From assembly GCA_049968235.1 (NCBI GenBank), contig JBMFRC010000006.1, positions 32,001 to 96,000 of the forward strand: a stretch of DNA of 64,000 nucleotides. Direction: 5' to 3'. Of this stretch, positions 43,980 through 64,000 are shown piece by piece. Position numbers and translations under genes: made by a program. Each line of letters starts with the position of its first letter. The first letter of the stretch is position 1. The notes beneath the pieces are model-generated. The model was not told where the DNA came from. It saw only the letters and a list, made by a program, of their open reading frames with translations, and did no database searches. This DNA comes from Candidatus Hydrogenedens sp. Its GTDB lineage: Bacteria; Hydrogenedentota; Hydrogenedentia; Hydrogenedentales; Hydrogenedentaceae.

Positions 43980-45140
43980 ATGAGAAGATTTTTCTTAATA
44001 GCTGTAACAATAATCATCACAAGTTTTCTATTCGGCTGTCCTTACAATGGTGTAATCAAAGATGGTGTTGTAATTGTTGACCAGTTACCTGGTGTAACCG
44101 TTTCTTCCGTTTCACCAGACCAGATTGTCTTAAATTCACAAGGGTCAGTTCCTGTAACAACGGGAGACATTATAATTGGTCAATATGGTGATACGGGTTA
44201 CCTTCGTAAGGTTACCGCAGTAGGACAAAAAGGTACAGAGGTTGTTGCTGTAACTGAGCCTGCTTCTTTAGAAGATGCCATTCAAGAAGGTATGTTGATG
44301 ACCAGTGTTAAGTTTGATGTAAATGATTATGTAAAAGCAGGTGTTTTACCCAAAGATGCAAAAGCGACTATAGTAAATTTTAGTGGGAAAGAAATTTATC
44401 GTGGAAATGGCATACGAATCACTGTAGACAAGGGTATATTGGATTGCACTCCACAGGTTGCAATTGTAGCAGACTATAAAGATTTTAAATTGAGGAAATT
44501 TGACTTAACAACAACGGGAACTATTACGCTTACTTTAGACCTTAAAATTGCTCTGGATAATGGAACACCAATCTCTCAGGAATGGGATATTATTCCACCA
44601 ATAATTCATCCTTTTGCGGCAAGTATTGGACCTGTTCCTGTTTACGGTCGCGTAACATTACGTTTCCCATTTGGATTATATGGACAGATGACTGGTGATA
44701 CAAGTGTGAAATCTGGTTTTGATATAAAAGATAATTTCACATTGAAGGCAGTATATGATACAGGCAGTTGGGATGGGTCAAAAGCAGATTTATTTAATTT
44801 CACTTTTGATGGACATCCACTTACATGGAATATTGATATAGGTGGTACTGCTCAAGCATATATTAAAGCCATAGTTGAGTTAACTCTCTATGAATCAGCA
44901 GAAGCAGTAATATTTGCTAAGCCGTATATCACATCGAATATCCATGTATTTCCTTCTCCTGCAAGTATCGAGATTATTGGCGGTGTGGATGCAGGTGCGT
45001 ATGCAGGTTTAAGTGTATTGGGACATAATATAATTGGCAAGAGTTTCTACTGGAATGGTCCCAGTAAGTTATTATATAGAGGTGTTCAGGACTATTCTGA
45101 CCCATTACCTTGGACAAGTGGTTCTATAGATTTGTGGTAA
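43980..45140 (+). CDS. Hypothetical lipoprotein (function unknown)
   Basis: Signal peptide with a lipobox (SFLFGC). No recognisable catalytic motifs. Followed by a strong terminator. Confidence 0.5.
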   Translation: MRRFFLIAVTIIITSFLFGCPYNGVIKDGVVIVDQLPGVTVSSVSPDQIVLNSQGSVPVTTGDIIIGQYGDTGYLRKVTAVGQKGTEVVAVTEPASLEDAIQEGMLMTSVKFDVNDYVKAGVLPKDAKATIVNFSGKEIYRGNGIRITVDKGILDCTPQVAIVADYKDFKLRKFDLTTTGTITLTLDLKIALDNGTPISQEWDIIPPIIHPFAASIGPVPVYGRVTLRFPFGLYGQMTGDTSVKSGFDIKDNFTLKAVYDTGSWDGSKADLFNFTFDGHPLTWNIDIGGTAQAYIKAIVELTLYESAEAVIFAKPYITSNIHVFPSPASIEIIGGVDAGAYAGLSVLGHNIIGKSFYWNGPSKLLYRGVQDYSDPLPWTSGSIDLW

Positions 45141-45160
45141 ATCAAAATTGAAAATTTTAA

Positions 45161-45200
45161 AAATGTGACTTGAACAAAGGGTTCAGGTCACATTTTTTAT
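45161..45200 (+). terminator. Strong rho-independent terminator after the lipoprotein gene
   Basis: A 15-bp stem (AAATGTGACTTGAAC / GTTCAGGTCACATTT, one G-U pair), a 5-nt loop AAAGG, then TTTTTTATT. It overlaps the TTG start the ORF track gives the next gene. Confidence 0.6.
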
Positions 45201-45226
45201 TATTGAATAGATTGTTGTTTGTGGCT

Positions 45227-46333
45227 ATGCCGTGTAAAAAAATCTTTTGTATATTTATTTTTTCTATCCTATTTTTTCGCTTCTCTTTTTCAGCACAAGG
45301 ACAATATCATTCTTCTGATTATTTGGAACCCCATTTTGTTATTCAATTACCTGAATTACTCCGTTTGGTGCAAATTTATAATTTTGGTTCTTATCATTGC
45401 GACAGTTCATCCGAAGACGGTTACGCACTTGGAAATGGTGATACATCCTGCAAACCTCATAGTTCGGATTATAATCCACAGGATTGGACTATATCTTTTC
45501 AAGAGGTATTACGATTGGCTCAATTTTACAAATCCAGCTCGTATCATATTGATTTATCAGGAGAAGATGGCTTTCAGCCGGGGAATGAAACTGAACCTGT
45601 TCCGGGAACAGAAAAAACTTTTTTAGGGATTCCTTTCGTTTGGATTCCTTCGGGGTCCTTTTACATGGGAACAACAAAAAGTTCAACGGAATTAGTTCAA
45701 TTATATGGCGGAAGTTCCTCTTTATATAGTTCTGAATATCCACAACATTTGGTTGCTATCTCTAACGGTTTTTGGATGAGCCAGACTGAAATTACACAAA
45801 AACAATGGACAGATATAATGGGATACAATCCATCAAATAATATAGGTGCCAATCTCCCTGTAGAAAATTTATCGTGGAATGAATGCCAGAAATTTATTGA
45901 AAAACTTAATAAATTAGGAAATGGGATATTTCGTTTGCCTACTGAAGCCGAATGGGAATATGCGTGTCGTGCAGGTTCTAATTCTGAATTTTGTTTCGGT
46001 GATGATGCAGAACAATTAGACAATTACGGATGGCATTTTTATAATAGTAACTATCAAACACATCCTGTAAAACAAAAATTACCCAATGTATGGGGATTAT
46101 ATGATATGCATGGAAATGTATGGGAATGGTGTCAGGACTGGTATGATACTGAGTATTATCAATACTCCCCTACTCTTGACCCTACTGGACCTGCAACAGG
46201 TAAATATAAAGTTTTACGAGGAGGCACATGTTTACGGACATCTGCCCGTTGTAGGTCTGCTTTTCGTTCATGGAATATACCCGATTTAACTATGGCTGAC
46301 CAAGGATTTAGAATATGCAGAATTTCCGATTAA
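45227..46333 (+). CDS. Secreted FGE-sulfatase (SUMF1/formylglycine-generating enzyme) domain protein with two N-terminal ~47-aa repeats
   Basis: C-terminal FGE-fold motifs (GNVWEWCQDWY, RGGTCLRTSARCRSAFR). A signal peptide from the ATG (MPCKKIFCIFIFSILFF...SFSAQG). The start was moved from the track TTG at 45170, which lies inside the terminator hairpin. The N-terminal repeats are shared with the next gene. Confidence 0.7.
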   Translation: MPCKKIFCIFIFSILFFRFSFSAQGQYHSSDYLEPHFVIQLPELLRLVQIYNFGSYHCDSSSEDGYALGNGDTSCKPHSSDYNPQDWTISFQEVLRLAQFYKSSSYHIDLSGEDGFQPGNETEPVPGTEKTFLGIPFVWIPSGSFYMGTTKSSTELVQLYGGSSSLYSSEYPQHLVAISNGFWMSQTEITQKQWTDIMGYNPSNNIGANLPVENLSWNECQKFIEKLNKLGNGIFRLPTEAEWEYACRAGSNSEFCFGDDAEQLDNYGWHFYNSNYQTHPVKQKLPNVWGLYDMHGNVWEWCQDWYDTEYYQYSPTLDPTGPATGKYKVLRGGTCLRTSARCRSAFRSWNIPDLTMADQGFRICRISD

Positions 46334-49300
46334 TATTCATTTTTCTATCTGGAGTATTTCTTTTTCACACATCCTCTTCTGGACATAATATAGGTATCTC
46401 TTCCTTATATTTTGAACCCAACCATAATCGTTTTGTTTCCGATGTGTTTTATTTTTCCATAGGAAATACTGTTTCTGTAGCATGTTATCAAAATGCTCTT
46501 GTGTTTTTTACATACAATTCTCAAGAATATTACAGAGTCGTTTTTCCTAAAGGTAAGCCTAAAGAAATTACAGGCAATATCCCTCTTCCATCATATTCAA
46601 CATATTTCTATGGGACGAATTCTACTCCTGCAATAGCAGTCCATTATAAAGCAGTTATATATAAAGAAATATTTCCGGGTATCGACTTATATTTATATGA
46701 AAAAGGAGGTAATTTTAAGTTCGATTTTATCGTTCATCCCGATTCAAAACCCGATGCGATTAGTATTAATTTTGAAACTCTCGATATACATAAGCAAAAG
46801 TGGATTTCTAAGAATCCTGAAATTGATGAAAACATTATTCGAATTGTCCACGATAATGTAAAACTAGATTTTTATGCCCCTTGTGCCTTTCAATGGATAA
46901 ATGGAATATCCCACAAAATACCTATTCGTTTATCGTATGACAATGGGGTGAAATTTTATATTCCTGAATCCTCATACAATCCCAATTATCCATTGCTTAT
47001 TGACCCTACTTTGTTGGCGGGCACATATTTGGGAGGGAATAATACCGACAAGATTATTGATGTAAAAACAGATACTGCAGGTAGCATCTATTTAGTTGGT
47101 GAAACAAAATCGCTTAATTTTCCTACCAGTGCTGGTTCTCTTCAAACAAACTATTCTGGTGGAGATATAACAGGAGATATATTTATTGCAAAATTAAATC
47201 CTCTTGCCAATTATCCCCTCTTTTCCACATTTTTGGGTGGTTCCGGGGATGATAGTGCCACAGCAATTAGAATTGATGAGCAAAGAAATATATATATAAC
47301 AGGGATAACTTCTTCTTCGGATTTTCCTACAACGACAAATGCCTATCAAACAACAAAAGCAGGTGGAAGAGATGCTTTTATTACAAAAATCAATTCAGAT
47401 GCTACCGAATTAATCTATAGTTCTTACATAGGAGGCAGTGGTGATGAAAGCATAATGGATTTCACTTTTCTTCCCGATAATAATATTGTTCTAACAGGCT
47501 GGACACAATCATCGGATTTTCCCATAACCGGAAGTTCTTCATTAAATTCTATGTTTAGCGGTGGAGGACTGGACGGATTTTTGTTTAAATGTAATTCATC
47601 ATTTCAACCTATATGGAGTGGTTTTATAGGAACAGCCGGTATAGATGTTTGTAAAACAATAGTAAATTTTGGTGGTGATATTATTTTAAGTGGATACACA
47701 TCCTCAATGAATTTTCCAACTACGCAGGGCGTATTTCAGATTTCTTATGGAGGTGGAAATTACGATTCATTTATAATGAAACTATCAGGTAATAATGCAT
47801 CTACAATATCTTCTTCTTATTTTGGGGGAAGTCTAATTGACCTATGTCAGGCTTTGATTTGTGATAGTTATGGAAACATATACATCACAGGAGAGACATC
47901 TTCCACCAACTTTCCAGTTAGTATCACATCGTTTCAGATTGGATATGGTGGTGGAGAAAGAGATGCTTTTGTTAGTAAACTATCTCCCAATTTAGACCAG
48001 ATAATTTTCAGTACTTATTTAGGAGGAAGTAAGACAGAATCAGGGCTCGGAATCGAATTGGACACATTATCACGAGTATATGTTGTTGGTTATACATATT
48101 CAGGAGATTTCCCTGTAATACCTGGGACATTACAACCTTTATATGGTGGTAATCAGGATGCATTTTTTGCATGCTTGAACCCTAATGGAAATACATTACA
48201 ATATAGTACTTTTTATGGAGGTAAAGGAGAAGAAAAAGCAAGGTCTGTCTATATTTCTAATTCCAATGTAATGTATACAGTAGGAGAAACTGCATCCAAT
48301 CTACTACCTATAACATCAGGGACTTTCCAGACAAGTTTTGGAGGAGGAACACTCGATGGTTTTCTCGCCTGTATTGATGTATCACCTCCTACAAATGAGG
48401 GAGAAGGACAAATAGAAGGGAATATTGAAGGAACCCCAGAAGGTTCGTTAGAAGGTGAAGGTTTAAGGGTATGGACAATAGCACCTGTGGAACGGGTTGT
48501 AACAGAAGGAGCAACAACTACTTTCATTATTGGTGTATCCGGTTATGTGGGAACTGTAAATTATCAATGGCAATTTAAGAGTATCATTGGAGAAGAATAT
48601 ATTCCTATTTTTAACAGCAATAGTCCTATGTTAACGTTGCGTAATATTCAATTTTCATCTTCTGGCTATTATCGATGTAGGGTAAGTGATTCTTTAGGGA
48701 CAGTATTCTCTTCTCCTTTCAAATTAACAGTTCTACAAAGTTTAGAAGGCTCAACAGAGGGGTTATTAGAAGGAAATATAGAAGGTATTATTGAAGGAAG
48801 TGCAGAAGGAACTACAGAAGGTTTATTAGAGGGAGTAGAAGAAGGGATACTAGAAGGCATTTCAGAAGGTTCAAATGAAGGGATTCTTCTTGAAGGTGAG
48901 GGTATAATAGAAGAAGGTCTAATGGAAGGTGAAGGTGCTTATTATCCCTGTGGTTTTGAGATAAATGGAAATGAAACTCATAGTCTCTTAAAAGATAAGG
49001 CTCAAAATCTTTATTATATTTATGTGCCTAATGAAGGGACATTAAACGACCTTATTGTTAATATTTCACTAACCCATGATAATTTACAGCAGATATTAAT
49101 TCAAATTGTATCCCCCTATGGAACAGAAGTTTTTCTACTGATTTATCCAGCACAAGGCGGAACTTCACTACAAAATACAAACTTTGACGATAATGCGGAA
49201 ATAAGTATAAGTGATGGAGTTAGTCCTTTTACAGGTAGTTACAAACCTGTGGGATATCTGGGAGTTTTACGAGGAGAAAATTTACAAGGTACATGGATGT

Positions 49301-49698
49301 TGAGAATTGTGGATTCCGAGACAGGTAGTAGAGGTTATCTTGAATCATGGAAATTGTTATTCAATACATATGCCTGTTCTGAAGAAGGAAATCCTGAAGA
49401 AGGTGAAATTGTAATGTATCATTCAGCAGATACCGATAAGAATCATTCTTTTTCCCTTGTTGAAGTGTTGCGGGTAATACAAATCTTCAATTTTGGTAGT
49501 TATCACTGTGATATTAATGGAGAGGATGGATATGGATTGGGTATAGGAGATCAGAATTGCAATCGCCATAGTTCTGATTATACAGGACCCTATTGGTCCA
49601 TTACTTTCCCCGAACTTTTGCGTTTAATACAGTTATTTAATATAGGTGGGTATGTATCCTGTTCAGATACAGAAGACGGTTTTTGTCCTATTCAATAG
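46315..49698 (+). CDS. Large secreted protein (1127 aa): DUF-like N-terminal domain, about 7 SBBP beta-propeller repeats, two (xxEG)n linkers flanking an Ig-like domain, a proprotein-convertase P-domain, and two C-terminal ~47-aa repeats
   Basis: Signal peptide. Repeated 'GG.g.D.a.aI..D..GNIYvtG.T.S.dFP.t.ga.q..ygGg.DaF' units characteristic of SBBP (PF06739). The P-domain-like segment NDLIVNISLTHDNLQQILIQIVSPYGTEV...GTWMLRIVDSETGSRGYLESWKLLF. A C-terminal repeat module homologous to the N-terminus of the upstream gene. Confidence 0.75.
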   Translation: MQNFRLIFIFLSGVFLFHTSSSGHNIGISSLYFEPNHNRFVSDVFYFSIGNTVSVACYQNALVFFTYNSQEYYRVVFPKGKPKEITGNIPLPSYSTYFYGTNSTPAIAVHYKAVIYKEIFPGIDLYLYEKGGNFKFDFIVHPDSKPDAISINFETLDIHKQKWISKNPEIDENIIRIVHDNVKLDFYAPCAFQWINGISHKIPIRLSYDNGVKFYIPESSYNPNYPLLIDPTLLAGTYLGGNNTDKIIDVKTDTAGSIYLVGETKSLNFPTSAGSLQTNYSGGDITGDIFIAKLNPLANYPLFSTFLGGSGDDSATAIRIDEQRNIYITGITSSSDFPTTTNAYQTTKAGGRDAFITKINSDATELIYSSYIGGSGDESIMDFTFLPDNNIVLTGWTQSSDFPITGSSSLNSMFSGGGLDGFLFKCNSSFQPIWSGFIGTAGIDVCKTIVNFGGDIILSGYTSSMNFPTTQGVFQISYGGGNYDSFIMKLSGNNASTISSSYFGGSLIDLCQALICDSYGNIYITGETSSTNFPVSITSFQIGYGGGERDAFVSKLSPNLDQIIFSTYLGGSKTESGLGIELDTLSRVYVVGYTYSGDFPVIPGTLQPLYGGNQDAFFACLNPNGNTLQYSTFYGGKGEEKARSVYISNSNVMYTVGETASNLLPITSGTFQTSFGGGTLDGFLACIDVSPPTNEGEGQIEGNIEGTPEGSLEGEGLRVWTIAPVERVVTEGATTTFIIGVSGYVGTVNYQWQFKSIIGEEYIPIFNSNSPMLTLRNIQFSSSGYYRCRVSDSLGTVFSSPFKLTVLQSLEGSTEGLLEGNIEGIIEGSAEGTTEGLLEGVEEGILEGISEGSNEGILLEGEGIIEEGLMEGEGAYYPCGFEINGNETHSLLKDKAQNLYYIYVPNEGTLNDLIVNISLTHDNLQQILIQIVSPYGTEVFLLIYPAQGGTSLQNTNFDDNAEISISDGVSPFTGSYKPVGYLGVLRGENLQGTWMLRIVDSETGSRGYLESWKLLFNTYACSEEGNPEEGEIVMYHSADTDKNHSFSLVEVLRVIQIFNFGSYHCDINGEDGYGLGIGDQNCNRHSSDYTGPYWSITFPELLRLIQLFNIGGYVSCSDTEDGFCPIQ

Positions 49699-62182: not shown

Positions 62183-62323
62183 TCTTATAGAAATAATTTT
62201 AAGGGTGATTCCATTAAAATTTTTTGTGATTTTTTACATTAATTTCATGCATAATTATTATAATACTGTTTTTCAGTGGTAGGTATAAATATATAAAAAA
62301 AACAATTAGGGAATTAAAATAAG

Positions 62324-64000
62324 ATGGGTAAATACAAGAATATGGTTGCACAATTATTATTCATTCTTTCAATTACTTTAACATCTTATTGCTTTTCACA
62401 GGATAATTTGAAAAATACTTCTTATTTAGAAAATTATTTTTTCCATTCTGAACAGAACAACCATTATTTTGCTTTTTCAAAAAATCAATACTTTGAAATT
62501 ACACCGGGTAGTCTAAAAATATGGATATGGAATCCTATAAAAAATGCCTTTTGTGAACCTGTAGAAATTTGTTTTCTTAACAATGAGAGTAATGCTGTCC
62601 TGGGAAGTGAAAAATCTGATGTAACATACAGTTATTATTCAGGAAATAATCCGGATAATTGGATACATAATAATTTTGCCTATAAGAAATTATGTATTCC
62701 CAACATTTACAAAGGAATTGACCTTGAATTTTACTTTAATAATCATGAGTTAGAGTTTGATTTCATCATTAACTCTCAAACAGATACTAATCAAATCCTT
62801 TGGAGAATCTGTGGGAATAATGTTGAATCACATATTGAAAACAATCAATTAGTTATTACAAATAACGAAGGCTATACATACACTTTTAGCATTCCAGAAA
62901 TATACAAATCCGCAATTAAAAATCCTGCGAGTATTCTTTCACATAATGTTTCTTTTTTAGATTTAGATGGGAATACATACCAAATCTATGTTGATATTCA
63001 TGATAGAAATTCCGAATTGCTTATAGACCCAATACTTACATTATCAACATATATAATTTTTCCGTCATCCAACTGGCCTTCTTCGCTATTTACCAAAATG
63101 TGTTTAGACTACTATAACAATATTGAGGATATTGCTTTAATAGGGGGAGCCATTGAATTTCCCGGTTCTTCTGGAACGGATGTATCAGGATTTTTATGTA
63201 AATTATCCCCACAATTAGGGAAAACACATCATATTGTTTTTATAAATGGAATGGGTGAAGATTATATAAATTTCGTTACTCATTTTATAAATATGATGAA
63301 TGAATTTATCGTTATAGGTGGGAAAACAAATTCTCTTAACTTTCCGACTGTTAACCCAGTCCAACCTTTAAATAGCATTCTGAACAGAAATGGAACATCT
63401 GGTGAATTTGATGGTTTTCTTATGATGTTTGACAAAGACCTAAGGATAACTTTTTCTACTTTTGTCGGTGGGAGTGGATATGACTCTATTGAAGATATTA
63501 ACATTAACACCAATAATTTATTTTTTGCAGGGAATACAAATTCTACTGATTTACCTCTGGTAAATTCTTCATTAAAAACTCAAAAAGGACTACTTGCAGA
63601 TGGTTTCTGGGGTATACTGAAACTTACGGACCCATTGGAGTGTCGATATATAACAAAATTAGGCATAGATGGCATTGAAATCAAGGATATTGAATCATAT
63701 TCAACAATTATATATCTTTGTGGAAATACAAGCGTAGGTTTACCGTATTTTAACCCAATAGTCCCGGAAACACCTGTTCAAGGGCAGGACATCTTTATTC
63801 AAACTTATTCATATTCTGAAGGCACAACAATCCCTGATATTAGTTTATTATCTTCTTTATTCTTAGGCGGTTCGGATAATGATATATTGGAAAAATCTAT
63901 TCTTCTGAATACAAATACCCTTTGTTTGGCAGGGAATACATATTCAAATGATTTGCCAGAACCTGTCATTTCGACAATACCTGAAAAAATACCTGAAAAA
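62324..64000 (+). CDS. Secreted SBBP beta-propeller-repeat protein, paralog of the 46315..49698 gene (5' partial; runs off the window end)
   Basis: Frame is open from the ATG at 62324 to base 64000 (559 codons). Signal peptide. The N-terminal domain is homologous to the large-protein N-terminus (DLEFYFNNHELEFDFII vs DLYLYEKGGNFKFDFIV). SBBP-like repeats follow (GG.g.D...NT.S.dLP). Confidence 0.7.
   Translation, partial: MGKYKNMVAQLLFILSITLTSYCFSQDNLKNTSYLENYFFHSEQNNHYFAFSKNQYFEITPGSLKIWIWNPIKNAFCEPVEICFLNNESNAVLGSEKSDVTYSYYSGNNPDNWIHNNFAYKKLCIPNIYKGIDLEFYFNNHELEFDFIINSQTDTNQILWRICGNNVESHIENNQLVITNNEGYTYTFSIPEIYKSAIKNPASILSHNVSFLDLDGNTYQIYVDIHDRNSELLIDPILTLSTYIIFPSSNWPSSLFTKMCLDYYNNIEDIALIGGAIEFPGSSGTDVSGFLCKLSPQLGKTHHIVFINGMGEDYINFVTHFINMMNEFIVIGGKTNSLNFPTVNPVQPLNSILNRNGTSGEFDGFLMMFDKDLRITFSTFVGGSGYDSIEDININTNNLFFAGNTNSTDLPLVNSSLKTQKGLLADGFWGILKLTDPLECRYITKLGIDGIEIKDIESYSTIIYLCGNTSVGLPYFNPIVPETPVQGQDIFIQTYSYSEGTTIPDISLLSSLFLGGSDNDILEKSILLNTNTLCLAGNTYSNDLPEPVISTIPEKIPEK

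What the first reader, a model, noticed from the sequence alone, without database searches (positions are those of the whole stretch)
45305..45589. Tandem ~47-aa repeat module shared between an FGE-domain protein (N-terminal) and the adjacent 1127-aa SBBP/P-domain protein (C-terminal, 49417..49695)
Both proteins carry two copies of a motif of the form HS(S/A)DY..x..W.I.F.E(L/V)LR(L/V)(I/A)Q.(F/Y)N.G.Y(H/V).C(D/S)...EDG(Y/F). Examples are YHSSDYLEPHFVIQLPELLRLVQIYNFGSYHCDSSSEDGY in the first and MYHSADTDKNHSFSLVEVLRVIQIFNFGSYHCDINGEDGY in the second. The module directly follows the signal peptide in the FGE-domain protein but forms the extreme C-terminus of the giant protein. I do not recognise it as dockerin, PEP-CTERM, T9SS CTD or LPXTG. 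A shared terminal module in two adjacent secreted proteins suggests a common anchoring, sorting or mutual docking function. An enzyme (FGE fold) may thereby be paired with a large adhesin-like scaffold. A lipoprotein of unknown function (43980..45140) lies directly upstream.
Basis: seen in the sequence. Interest (0 to 1): 0.65.

Follow-up and report, generated by a model that had tools for sequence, protein, structure and literature searches.

The report
Dockerin-like calcium-loop docking tag, Hydrogenedentota
The repeat shared by the two neighbouring secreted proteins is real and belongs to a very large, unnamed family of about 95-residue extracellular tags, found mostly in Hydrogenedentota bacteria, which most resemble the dockerin tags that clip enzymes onto cell-surface scaffolds.

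Summary
The FGE-fold protein carries the double repeat directly after its signal peptide (45305..45604). The 1127-aa protein carries it at its extreme C-terminus (49417..49695).

It is not local duplication noise. Orthologues in Ca. Hydrogenedens terephthalaticus keep both copies. An exhaustive profile search finds 2,990 cluster representatives, and genome scans find at least 589 copies, mostly in Hydrogenedentota MAGs and many per genome. Pfam and NCBIfam have no model for it, and the searched literature does not mention it.

- **Structure:** each repeat is an EF-hand-type loop, a helix and a β-hairpin (AF2 pLDDT 96). Paired cysteine loss indicates one disulfide per repeat.
- **Distribution:** mostly C-terminal, sometimes N-terminal, internal or tandem, on about 90 different cargo families.
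- **Cohesin link:** it is fused to genuine cohesin domains in 12 proteins. Cohesin proteins without the module end in membrane anchors. In a related cohesin protein from another organism, a canonical dockerin occupies the same slot.

Best reading (about 0.5): a new dockerin-like, Ca2+-dependent docking tag. The partner is unproven. The upstream lipoprotein is not supported as that partner, but it is linked to the FGE domain by a gene fusion in another organism.

The parts
45227..46333 (+). Gene for the secreted FGE-sulfatase-fold protein: signal peptide, module, short linker, FGE-fold domain. The mechanical ORF starts at TTG 45170; ATG 45227 (MPCKKIF...) is the likelier start.
   Evidence: ORF. 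Pfam PF03781 166 bits at aa 156-383. The TTG at 45170 lies inside a 17-bp-stem hairpin at 45159..45197. The orthologue alignment begins at aa 42.
45227..45298 (+). Predicted signal peptide of the FGE-fold protein (MPCKKIFCIFIFSILFFRFSFSAQ).
   Evidence: Read from the sequence. Other N-terminal-module proteins show the same A-x-A-Q|x-H-S-A-D junction.
45305..45454 (+). Module repeat F1 (YHSSDYLEPHFVIQLPELLRLVQIYNFGSYHCDSSSEDGYALGNGDTSCK): a 13-residue loop variant, a helix, a hairpin and the Cys pair.
45455..45604 (+). Module repeat F2 (PHSSDYNPQDWTISFQEVLRLAQFYKSSSYHIDLSGEDGFQPG...). It has the consensus 13-residue loop DYNPQDW and lacks the second Cys pair (D...Q), as is typical of non-C-terminal copies.
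46315..49698 (+). Gene for the 1127-aa secreted protein: signal peptide, DUF7948, SBBP beta-propeller, Ig, P-domain, acidic linker, module. Its start overlaps the FGE gene's stop by 19 nt.
   Evidence: ORF. Pfam. Orthologues are 84% and 70% identical in L001 and L002.
49417..49563 (+). Module repeat B1 (YHSADTDKNHSFSLVEVLRVIQIFNFGSYHCDINGEDGYGLGIGDQNCN). Its 12-residue loop D-T-D-K-N-H-S-F-S-L-V-E has EF-hand spacing (positions 1 D, 3 D, 5 N, 9 S, 12 E).
   Evidence: Model pLDDT 96.
49564..49695 (+). Module repeat B2 (RHSSDYTGPYWSITFPELLRLIQLFNIGGYVSCSDTEDGFCPIQ*). It has a 13-residue loop variant and the second Cys pair, and it ends at the stop codon.
43980..45140 (+). Conserved upstream lipoprotein (386 aa, all-beta). 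It is context only, with no evidence that it is the module's receptor. It is linked to the FGE domain by a fusion protein in another organism.
45159..45197 (+). Hairpin with a 17-bp stem followed by a T-rich tail, between the lipoprotein gene and the FGE gene. It is terminator- or attenuator-like.
   Evidence: This is a consensus scan only; function was not tested.

Best explanation
The shared repeat is one instance, in each protein, of a large and so far unannotated extracytoplasmic domain family of about 95 aa. Its consensus is HSADxNxDxxIsLSELLRVIQFYNsGGYHC..gtEDGYaPG.Gd.sC.PHSSDYNPQDWxIsLSELLRLIQFYNsGGYh.Cp.gEDGFCPG. The family is characteristic of Hydrogenedentota.

Each half is an EF-hand-derived loop plus exiting helix, an 'F-hand' as in dockerins, followed by a short beta-hairpin that is usually closed by a disulfide.

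The most likely function is that of a portable, Ca2+-dependent docking tag analogous to a dockerin. After Sec export the tag folds, binds Ca2+ and attaches very diverse secreted cargo to cohesin-bearing adaptor proteins and membrane-anchored proteins on the cell envelope. In this window the cargo is an FGE-fold domain and a beta-propeller/Ig/P-domain protein.

**Shown:** the family exists and is large; its position and cargo diversity; the confident fold; the EF-hand-type loops in most members; the paired cysteines; and the fusion to genuine cohesins.

**Inferred:** Ca2+ binding, cohesin binding and a cell-surface location.
For: 1. **Family size and conservation.** The exhaustive search gives 2,990 hits at E<=1e-3 and 1,206 at E<=1e-30 among 1.84 billion representatives. 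Genome contigs hold at least 589 confirmed copies, many per MAG. Orthologous loci L001 and L002 keep both copies.
2. **Portability.** Among representatives, 129 copies are C-terminal, 13 N-terminal and 21 internal, and some proteins carry 2-4 copies. In 80 loci, 106 ORFs carry the module. There are 90 Pfam cargo families among 75 proteins. An (E-G)n or acidic linker precedes 119 of 223 C-terminal copies.
4. **Ca2+ loops.** Over 344 instances, loop 1 has position 1 D 93%, position 3 N/D 84%, position 5 D/N 90%, position 8 I 81%, position 9 S/N/D 82% and position 12 E 99%. Of 37 members, 23 hit EF-hand_6, 18 hit EF-hand_5 (best E 1.3e-6) and 6 hit Dockerin_1 weakly.
5. **Extracytoplasmic location.** Host proteins have signal peptides. 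The two cysteines of repeat 2 are both present in 262 instances, both absent in 78 and single in 4 (Fisher p = 1.4e-72).
6. **Cohesin link.** A cohesin-like domain occurs in 14 sampled proteins, 12 of which carry the module. These include small proteins built as signal peptide, cohesin, module. Pfam Cohesin scores are 51.2, 37.4, 28.7 and 27.7 bits against a cutoff of 24.1. The domain profile hits solved cellulosomal cohesins over their full length at E 1.5e-12.
7. **Anchored cohesins.** The two cohesin proteins that lack the module both end in a TM helix with a basic tail.
8. **Positional substitution.** In L081, a protein whose cohesin is 43% identical carries a canonical Dockerin_1 (31.6 bits) exactly where the Hydrogenedentota proteins carry the module.
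9. **Few competing dockerins.** A local dockerin HMM found no canonical dockerin among 506 sampled ORFs.
Against: - The beta-hairpins and disulfides have no counterpart in dockerins. Position 12 is Glu, as in EF-hands, not Asp.
- Loop 2 is a 13-residue variant of unknown metal-binding competence.
- The window's own loops are degenerate. Only B1 keeps canonical spacing, and none of the window copies hits a Pfam EF-hand model.
- No binding partner has been demonstrated. Cohesins appear in only about 5% of the module proteins examined, so cohesin could simply be one more cargo.
- At least one neighbouring protein (L010 4017-5468) has a sub-threshold canonical dockerin (15.6 bits) that could be the cohesins' true partner.
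- The helix residues are nearly invariant across the family (E 99%, R 97-99%, Q 95%, N 93%). Cellulosomal dockerins instead diversify their recognition residues.
- The positional-substitution argument rests on a single locus.
- The sampled loci were selected because they contain the module, so co-occurrence counts are biased.
Confidence: 0.5

Rival explanations
1. The module is a Ca2+-dependent anchor that binds a conserved non-protein envelope or matrix component, such as LPS or another glycan, an S-layer glycan or an exopolymer, rather than a cohesin. It would work like SLH or cell-wall-binding repeats and hold secreted proteins on the cell or in a biofilm matrix.
For: The exposed helix motif E-L-L-R-x-I-Q-F-Y-N and the E-D-G-[YF] motif are nearly invariant across thousands of members. 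That suits one universal ligand better than diversified protein partners. Tandem arrays of 2-4 modules exist (P0121, P0122, P0129), as in cell-wall-binding repeats. Cohesins are found in only a minority of module proteins. No recurrent partner gene lies next to module genes.
Against: The closest fold is a protein-protein docking module. The module is fused to genuine cohesins, and the cohesins without it are membrane-anchored. A canonical dockerin occupies the same slot in L081. The module shows no similarity to any known carbohydrate-binding or SLH family.
Confidence: 0.2
2. Modules bind one another, homotypically or heterotypically. Tagged proteins, including the adjacent FGE-fold and giant proteins, would then dock to each other or form a Ca2+-bridged network.
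For: Module genes are often adjacent (L007, L008, L022, L026, L044 with three in a row, L065, L069, L073, L080). There are two structural subtypes, with and without the second disulfide. The subtype correlates with position: 84% of C-terminal copies have the disulfide against 27% of the others (p = 9e-16). The window pair has one of each subtype. EF-hand pairs are known to dimerise (general knowledge).
Against: Each module already contains two paired EF-hand-like halves packed into one compact, confidently predicted domain, so there is no obvious unpaired half. With dozens of tagged proteins per genome, pairing could not be specific to neighbouring genes. There is no direct evidence for it.
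Confidence: 0.1
3. The module has no partner. It is a Ca2+-triggered folding or stabilising cap or solubility element that helps large secreted proteins fold once outside the low-Ca2+ cytoplasm, as RTX repeats do.
For: It has EF-hand-type loops. It has disulfides that can form only after export. It is attached to very diverse, often very large, repeat-rich proteins.
Against: A folding aid would not be expected to keep near-invariant surface motifs across unrelated cargo. It would not be expected to sit behind long flexible (E-G)n linkers that uncouple it from the cargo fold. It would also not be expected to make up small proteins consisting of little more than a cohesin and the tag.
Confidence: 0.1
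4. The module is a lineage-specific sorting or secretion signal that is recognised and perhaps removed by dedicated export machinery, analogous to the T9SS C-terminal domain.
For: It is strongly biased to the extreme C-terminus: 129 of 163 copies end within 25 residues of the stop, usually within a few residues. It is lineage-restricted and has dozens of substrates per genome.
Against: About 20% of copies are N-terminal, internal or tandem. It has no TM segment or basic tail, so it is not PEP-CTERM or LPXTG-like. It is a small alpha/beta fold, not a beta-sandwich. It matches no NCBIfam sorting-domain model. FGE-fold cargo always carries it N-terminally, directly after a normal Sec signal peptide.
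Confidence: 0.05

Closest known systems
Type I dockerin (Pfam PF00404), e.g. C. thermocellum CelS/Xyn10B and C. cellulolyticum Cel5A dockerins (PDB 2vn5_B, 2ccl_B, 4dh2_D, 3ul4_B)
   Same: It is a duplicated module with two EF-hand-like Ca2+-loop plus helix units; this definition of a dockerin is taken from PMC12484212. It is small and portable, mostly C-terminal but sometimes N-terminal, internal or doubled, and it sits behind flexible linkers on many unrelated secreted proteins. Dockerin is the best structural match. The module occurs in the same polypeptides as genuine cohesins. A canonical dockerin fills the same slot in a related cohesin protein.
   Different: The module is about 95 aa, against about 60-70 aa for a dockerin. 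Each half carries an extra beta-hairpin with a conserved disulfide and an E-D-G-[YF] motif. Loop position 12 is Glu rather than Asp, and the second loop has 13 residues. Invariant His and Trp residues are present. There is no Pfam hit or profile-profile similarity beyond the loop. The helix surface is nearly invariant rather than diversified for specificity. Cohesin binding has not been demonstrated.
Canonical EF-hand (Pfam PF13405, PF13202, PF00036, PF13499)
   Same: Loop 1 of most family members is a textbook 12-residue D-x-[ND]-x-[DN]-x-x-I-[SND]-x-x-E loop followed by an exiting helix. The two units pair within one domain.
   Different: The model has no entering helix, so this is an F-hand rather than a helix-loop-helix. 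The module is extracytoplasmic and disulfide-stapled. The window's four copies do not reach any EF-hand model. Position 6 is Gly in only about 20% of instances.
T9SS C-terminal domain and PEP-CTERM/LPXTG-type sorting signals
   Same: All are lineage-typical tags found at the extreme C-terminus of many secreted proteins in a genome.
   Different: The module is not strictly C-terminal, has no TM helix or basic tail, is not a beta-sandwich and has no model match.

Membership tests
Dockerin type I (PF00404) | Sequence match to the family model above the gathering threshold | tested here: not met
   The window modules have no hit at E<=1. Only 6 of 37 family members give weak hits, best E 0.019.
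Dockerin type I (PF00404) | Profile-profile similarity to authentic dockerins across the domain | tested here: not met
   hhalign of A2 against CelS and CelD dockerins gives probability 5% and aligns only 18 columns, the Ca2+ loop. The dockerin profile had only 2 sequences, so this is a weak test.
Dockerin type I (PF00404) | Two duplicated EF-hand-like Ca2+-loop plus helix segments in one small domain (PMC12484212) | tested here: met
   The AF2 model shows loop 1-13 / helix 14-26 and loop 50-63 / helix 64-76.
Dockerin type I (PF00404) | Three-dimensional similarity to solved dockerins | tested here: inconclusive
Dockerin type I (PF00404) | Ca2+-dependent binding to a cohesin | not testable with these tools
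   Only indirect evidence is available: fusion to genuine cohesins, TM-anchored cohesins without the module and a canonical dockerin in the equivalent slot in L081.
EF-hand (PF13405/PF13202/PF00036) | 12-residue loop with ligands at positions 1, 3, 5, 9 and a bidentate Glu at position 12 | tested here: met
   This holds for loop 1 of the family, and 23 of 37 members hit EF-hand_6. Among the window copies only B1 (DTDKNHSFSLVE) keeps the spacing, and none reaches a Pfam model.
EF-hand (PF13405/PF13202/PF00036) | Helix-loop-helix with an entering helix | tested here: not met
   The model has no helix before either loop.
EF-hand (PF13405/PF13202/PF00036) | Ca2+ binding | not testable with these tools
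   No coordinates or metal modelling were available. This needs ITC or DSF with Ca2+ and EDTA.
T9SS C-terminal domain | Strictly C-terminal beta-sandwich of about 70-100 aa | tested here: not met
   34 of 163 copies are N-terminal or internal. The fold is helix plus hairpin, not a beta-sandwich. There is no NCBIfam match.
PEP-CTERM / LPXTG / other TM-type sorting signals | Short motif followed by a TM helix and basic tail at the extreme C-terminus | tested here: not met
   The module ends ...EDGFCPIQ* with no hydrophobic stretch. There is no NCBIfam match.
Cohesin (PF00963), tested for the upstream lipoprotein as candidate receptor | Cohesin sequence model or jelly-roll fold match | tested here: not met

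The most novel reading that the evidence does not exclude
Hydrogenedentota, a phylum known almost only from metagenomes, run a phylum-wide, non-cellulosomal cohesin-dockerin-type surface-assembly system built on a previously unrecognised, disulfide-stapled dockerin class. Dozens of adhesins and enzymes per cell would be clipped onto membrane-anchored cohesin proteins and adaptor cohesin proteins. Two tag subtypes, with and without the second disulfide, could give two tiers of specificity, like type I and type II dockerins.
Probability: 0.35. Interest if true: 0.75.

Novelty: new variant of a known kind. Interest (0 to 1): 0.6.

Why it matters
If the reading is right, one unannotated 95-residue tag explains how a poorly understood, uncultured phylum organises much of its secreted and surface proteome. 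A model for the family would immediately annotate thousands of 'hypothetical' proteins and flag them as surface-displayed. It would extend the cohesin-dockerin principle to a new structural class with built-in disulfides, well outside cellulose degradation. It would also offer a new orthogonal, Ca2+-switchable, oxidation-stabilised docking pair for designer scaffolds. A practical point follows too: the highly conserved coding sequence is repeated dozens of times per genome, and many database hits for the family are partial proteins.

Tried and rejected
2. **A recurrent partner gene next to module genes.** All-against-all clustering of 506 ORFs, with the module masked, gave only Gfo/Idh/MocA-type oxidoreductases and histidine kinases.
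3. **A large-database search with the cohesin-like region.** It returned no hits, probably because of the word-index limit. Metagenome scans with cohesin alignments failed for lack of conserved columns. A single-sequence scan gave only 2 loci.
4. **Sequence homology to dockerins.** hhalign was negative. The PDB profile search gave only EF-hand proteins at E about 1.
5. **Local duplication or gene conversion as the origin of the shared repeat.** The paralogous copies are about 50% identical, whereas the orthologous copies are 80-90% identical.
6. **Sorting-signal families (T9SS CTD, PEP-CTERM, LPXTG).** Rejected on position, fold and the lack of any model match.
7. **Checking whether MAGs labelled 'uncultured Nitrospirales' are really Hydrogenedentota.** The one shared conserved gene is 61% identical to the window's copy, which is not diagnostic.
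8. **Geometry checks of the metal sites and disulfides.** These were not possible because model coordinates are not exposed.
Full report
**1. The observation**

The region holds three co-directional genes set among housekeeping genes (rsmB, a PASTA protein and rpe upstream; a D-Ala-D-Ala carboxypeptidase and a histidine kinase downstream on the other strand).
- A lipoprotein at 43980..45140.
- A 387-aa ORF at 45170..46333 with a C-terminal FGE-sulfatase domain (PF03781, 166 bits).
- An overlapping 1127-aa ORF at 46315..49698 with DUF7948, four SBBP beta-propeller repeats, an Ig domain and a proprotein-convertase P-domain.

The four repeat copies lie at 45305..45454, 45455..45604, 49417..49563 and 49564..49695. 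The two double modules are 51% identical. No other copy exists in the window's six frames. A hairpin with a 17-bp stem at 45159..45197 covers the mechanical TTG start, so ATG 45227 (MPCKKIF...) is the likelier start of the FGE gene. In the FGE protein the module begins two residues after the predicted cleavage site (SFSAQ|GQ). In the giant protein it ends at the stop codon.

**2. It is not local noise**

The window is 85% identical at the DNA level, and collinear, with a contig of Ca. Hydrogenedens terephthalaticus (L001). It is 76% identical with a second MAG (L002). Both keep the lipoprotein, FGE and giant-protein order, and both keep both modules. Orthologous proteins are 80-94% identical, whereas the two paralogous modules are only about 50% identical. 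The two copies are therefore old and maintained.

**3. A very large, unnamed family**

- A profile of the two window modules retrieved 157 proteins, with E-values down to 1.6e-45. Many are partial proteins from Hydrogenedentes MAGs.
- An exhaustive HMM search of 1.84 billion representatives with a 37-sequence alignment (A2) gave 2,990 hits at E<=1e-3, 2,496 at E<=1e-10 and 1,206 at E<=1e-30.
Among the best 80 loci, 36 are labelled Hydrogenedentota, Hydrogenedentes or Hydrogenedens. Another 39 come from MAGs labelled 'uncultured Nitrospirales', a label I could not verify. Single MAGs contribute 13-15 of the 80 loci.
- A few members come from other lineages, for example P0023 from Paceibacterota.
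- Neither Pfam nor NCBIfam has a model for the family. The searched literature on Hydrogenedentota and on cohesin-dockerin systems does not mention it.

**4. Anatomy**

AlphaFold2 with the family alignment gives a very confident model (pLDDT 96.2, pTM 0.85). Each repeat is an N-terminal loop, a 13-residue helix and a beta-hairpin.

Loop 1, over 344 non-identical instances, is a textbook EF-hand loop:

| Loop 1 position | Residue(s) | Frequency |
|---|---|---|
| 1 | D | 93% |
| 3 | N/D | 84% |
| 5 | D/N | 90% |
| 8 | I | 81% |
| 9 | S/N/D | 82% |
| 12 | E | 99% |

Loop 2 is a conserved 13-residue variant, D-Y-N-P-Q-D-W-x-I-x-L-S-E. Both helices carry the near-invariant motif E-L-L-R-x-I-Q-F-[FY]-N, and both hairpins end in E-D-G-[YF]. 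In line with this, 23 of 37 members hit EF-hand_6, 18 hit EF-hand_5 (best E 1.3e-6) and 6 hit Dockerin_1 weakly. The window's own copies are too divergent to hit any of these models.

The cysteines behave as two pairs.
- The repeat-1 pair is present together in 337 instances, absent together in 2 and single in 5.
- The repeat-2 pair is present together in 262, absent together in 78 and single in only 4 (Fisher p = 1.4e-72).

This is the signature of one disulfide per repeat and fits an extracytoplasmic domain. The second pair depends on position: 84% of C-terminal copies have it, against 27% of N-terminal or internal copies (p = 9e-16, not corrected for relatedness). The window shows exactly this split. 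The giant protein's copy has the pair and the FGE copy lacks it.

**5. Closest known fold**

A profile-profile comparison with two authentic type-I dockerins, whose sequences were recovered from the PDB, aligned only the 18-column Ca2+ loop at probability 5%.

So dockerin is the nearest known architecture: two EF-hand-like loop-helix units, as defined in PMC12484212. The module is nevertheless not a sequence member of that family, and it carries extra disulfide-closed hairpins.

**6. Distribution on proteins**

- Among 144 representatives, 129 copies are C-terminal, 13 N-terminal and 21 internal. Some proteins have 2-4 copies, and a few small proteins combine modules with a C-terminal TM anchor.
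- In the 80 loci, 106 ORFs carry the module, and adjacent module genes are common.
- Cargo is extremely diverse, with 90 Pfam families in 75 proteins. These include Ig-like, LRR, beta-helix, Kelch, PKD, CHRD, PASTA and P-domain families.
- About half of C-terminal copies follow an (E-G)n or acidic linker.
- N-terminal copies start right at an A-x-A-Q| cleavage site.
- Whenever the cargo is an FGE-sulfatase domain, the module precedes it and the FGE domain is C-terminal (window, L001, L002, L063, L074, L016).

This pattern rules out a strictly C-terminal sorting signal. It matches the behaviour of a portable docking or anchoring module. It also means that the adjacency of the two window genes is not in itself evidence that they dock to each other.

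**7. The cohesin link**

One N-terminal-module protein (L015) has a Pfam Cohesin domain directly after the module. An iterated local search found this domain in 14 sampled proteins, 12 of which also carry the module. Among them is a recurrent class of proteins of about 260-290 aa built as signal peptide, cohesin, module.

Pfam Cohesin scores reach 51.2, 37.4, 28.7 and 27.7 bits against a cutoff of 24.1. The domain profile hits solved cellulosomal cohesins over their full length (1g1k_A at E 1.5e-12, 2vn5_A at 1.7e-12, and nine more). These are therefore genuine cohesins.

The two cohesin proteins that lack the module (L010 6093-7421 and L027) both end in a TM helix with a basic tail, which makes them look like anchoring scaffoldins. 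In L010, three genes lie in a row:
- a protein with a sub-threshold canonical dockerin (15.6 bits);
- the protein built as signal peptide, cohesin, module;
- the TM-anchored cohesin protein.

In an unrelated GC-rich metagenome contig (L081), a protein whose cohesin is 43% identical has the architecture VWA, Cohesin, Dockerin_1 (31.6 bits). Its canonical dockerin sits in exactly the slot that the module occupies in the Hydrogenedentota proteins. A simple dockerin HMM found no canonical dockerin among the 506 sampled ORFs.

Together these results make 'functional analogue of a dockerin' the best-supported mechanism. Several caveats apply:
- the sample is biased towards module loci;
- cohesins occur in only about 5% of the module proteins examined;
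- the substitution argument rests on one locus;
- binding has not been tested.

**8. The lipoprotein**

However, P0274 fuses a lipoprotein-like region (29% identity over 217 aa) to an FGE-sulfatase domain that is 35.5% identical to the window's. This Rosetta-stone link suggests that the lipoprotein and the FGE-fold protein work together.

The FGE-fold domain's closest solved relative is the Treponema denticola surface protein TvpA (2y3c, E 4.7e-32), ahead of true formylglycine-generating enzymes and PorK. Calling it an 'enzyme' is therefore unproven.

**9. Verdict**

It is a new, very large domain family that is best described as a disulfide-stapled, EF-hand-derived, dockerin-like docking tag.
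- I put about 0.5 on Ca2+-dependent docking to cohesin-bearing scaffold or anchor proteins.
- I put about 0.2 on anchoring to a conserved non-protein envelope or matrix ligand.
- Smaller weights go to module-module association, a folding cap and a sorting signal.

In terms of novelty it is a new variant of a known kind.

Noticed in passing
window 45159..45197: A hairpin with a 17-bp stem and a T-rich tail lies between the lipoprotein stop (45140) and ATG 45227. It covers the TTG at 45170 that the mechanical ORF call uses as the start. The FGE gene probably starts at 45227, and the lipoprotein may be a separate transcription unit or subject to attenuation.
   Followed up: partly
P0274 (525 aa) compared with window 43980..45140 and 45605..46330: This protein fuses a lipoprotein-like region to an FGE-sulfatase domain. 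It links the two adjacent window genes functionally. It has no module.
   Followed up: partly
window 62318..64000 (+): A paralogue of the giant protein (DUF7948, 87 bits) is truncated by the end of the window and lies just after the GlnRS gene. Its C-terminus, and therefore any module, lies outside the window.
   Followed up: partly
window 46315..46333: The giant protein's ATG lies 19 nt upstream of the FGE gene's stop. The overlap suggests co-transcription and possibly translational coupling.
   Followed up: no
family-wide (344 instances); window 45455..45604 compared with 49564..49695: There are two module subtypes. The second disulfide is present in 84% of C-terminal copies but only 27% of N-terminal or internal copies. 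It is also missing in 4 of 7 cohesin-linked C-terminal copies, against 42 of 288 others (p = 0.013). This hints at two specificity classes. The statistics are not corrected for phylogeny.
   Followed up: partly
L010 4017..7421 (+): A three-gene cluster: a protein with a sub-threshold canonical dockerin; a protein built as signal peptide, cohesin, module (282 aa); and a protein built as signal peptide, cohesin, Pro/Ala-rich linker, C-terminal TM helix and RRR tail. It looks like a minimal set of cargo, adaptor and anchor.
   Followed up: partly
L010 415..2793 (-): A 793-aa secreted protein made of many canonical EF-hand pairs (EF-hand_7, 129 bits) separated by (E-G)n linkers, with the module at its C-terminus. 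It is a tagged extracellular Ca2+-binding protein.
   Followed up: no
P0127, P0129, P0122: Small proteins carry 2-3 tandem modules plus an N- or C-terminal TM helix and Asp-rich or Cys-rich spacers. Separately, P0023 is labelled Paceibacterota. The module is therefore not strictly confined to Hydrogenedentota, and it can itself be membrane-anchored.
   Followed up: no
one search hit list; L003, L011, L012, L016, L023 and others: A large share of the database hits are partial proteins of 70-170 aa, and several of the loci fetched here are short contigs. I suspect the highly conserved module-coding sequence, repeated dozens of times per genome, fragments short-read assemblies. I did not test this.
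   Followed up: no
record titles (L004, L006, L008 and others): 39 of the 80 best loci come from TPA MAGs titled 'uncultured Nitrospirales bacterium'. Their module-rich gene content looks like that of the Hydrogenedentota MAGs, so the taxonomic labels may be wrong. The one shared conserved gene (61% identity to the window's copy) did not settle this.
   Followed up: partly
window 45605..46330: The FGE-fold domain's closest solved relative is the T. denticola surface protein TvpA (2y3c), not a true formylglycine-generating enzyme. PorK/GldK also match. Whether the catalytic Cys pair of true FGEs is present was not examined rigorously.
   Followed up: partly
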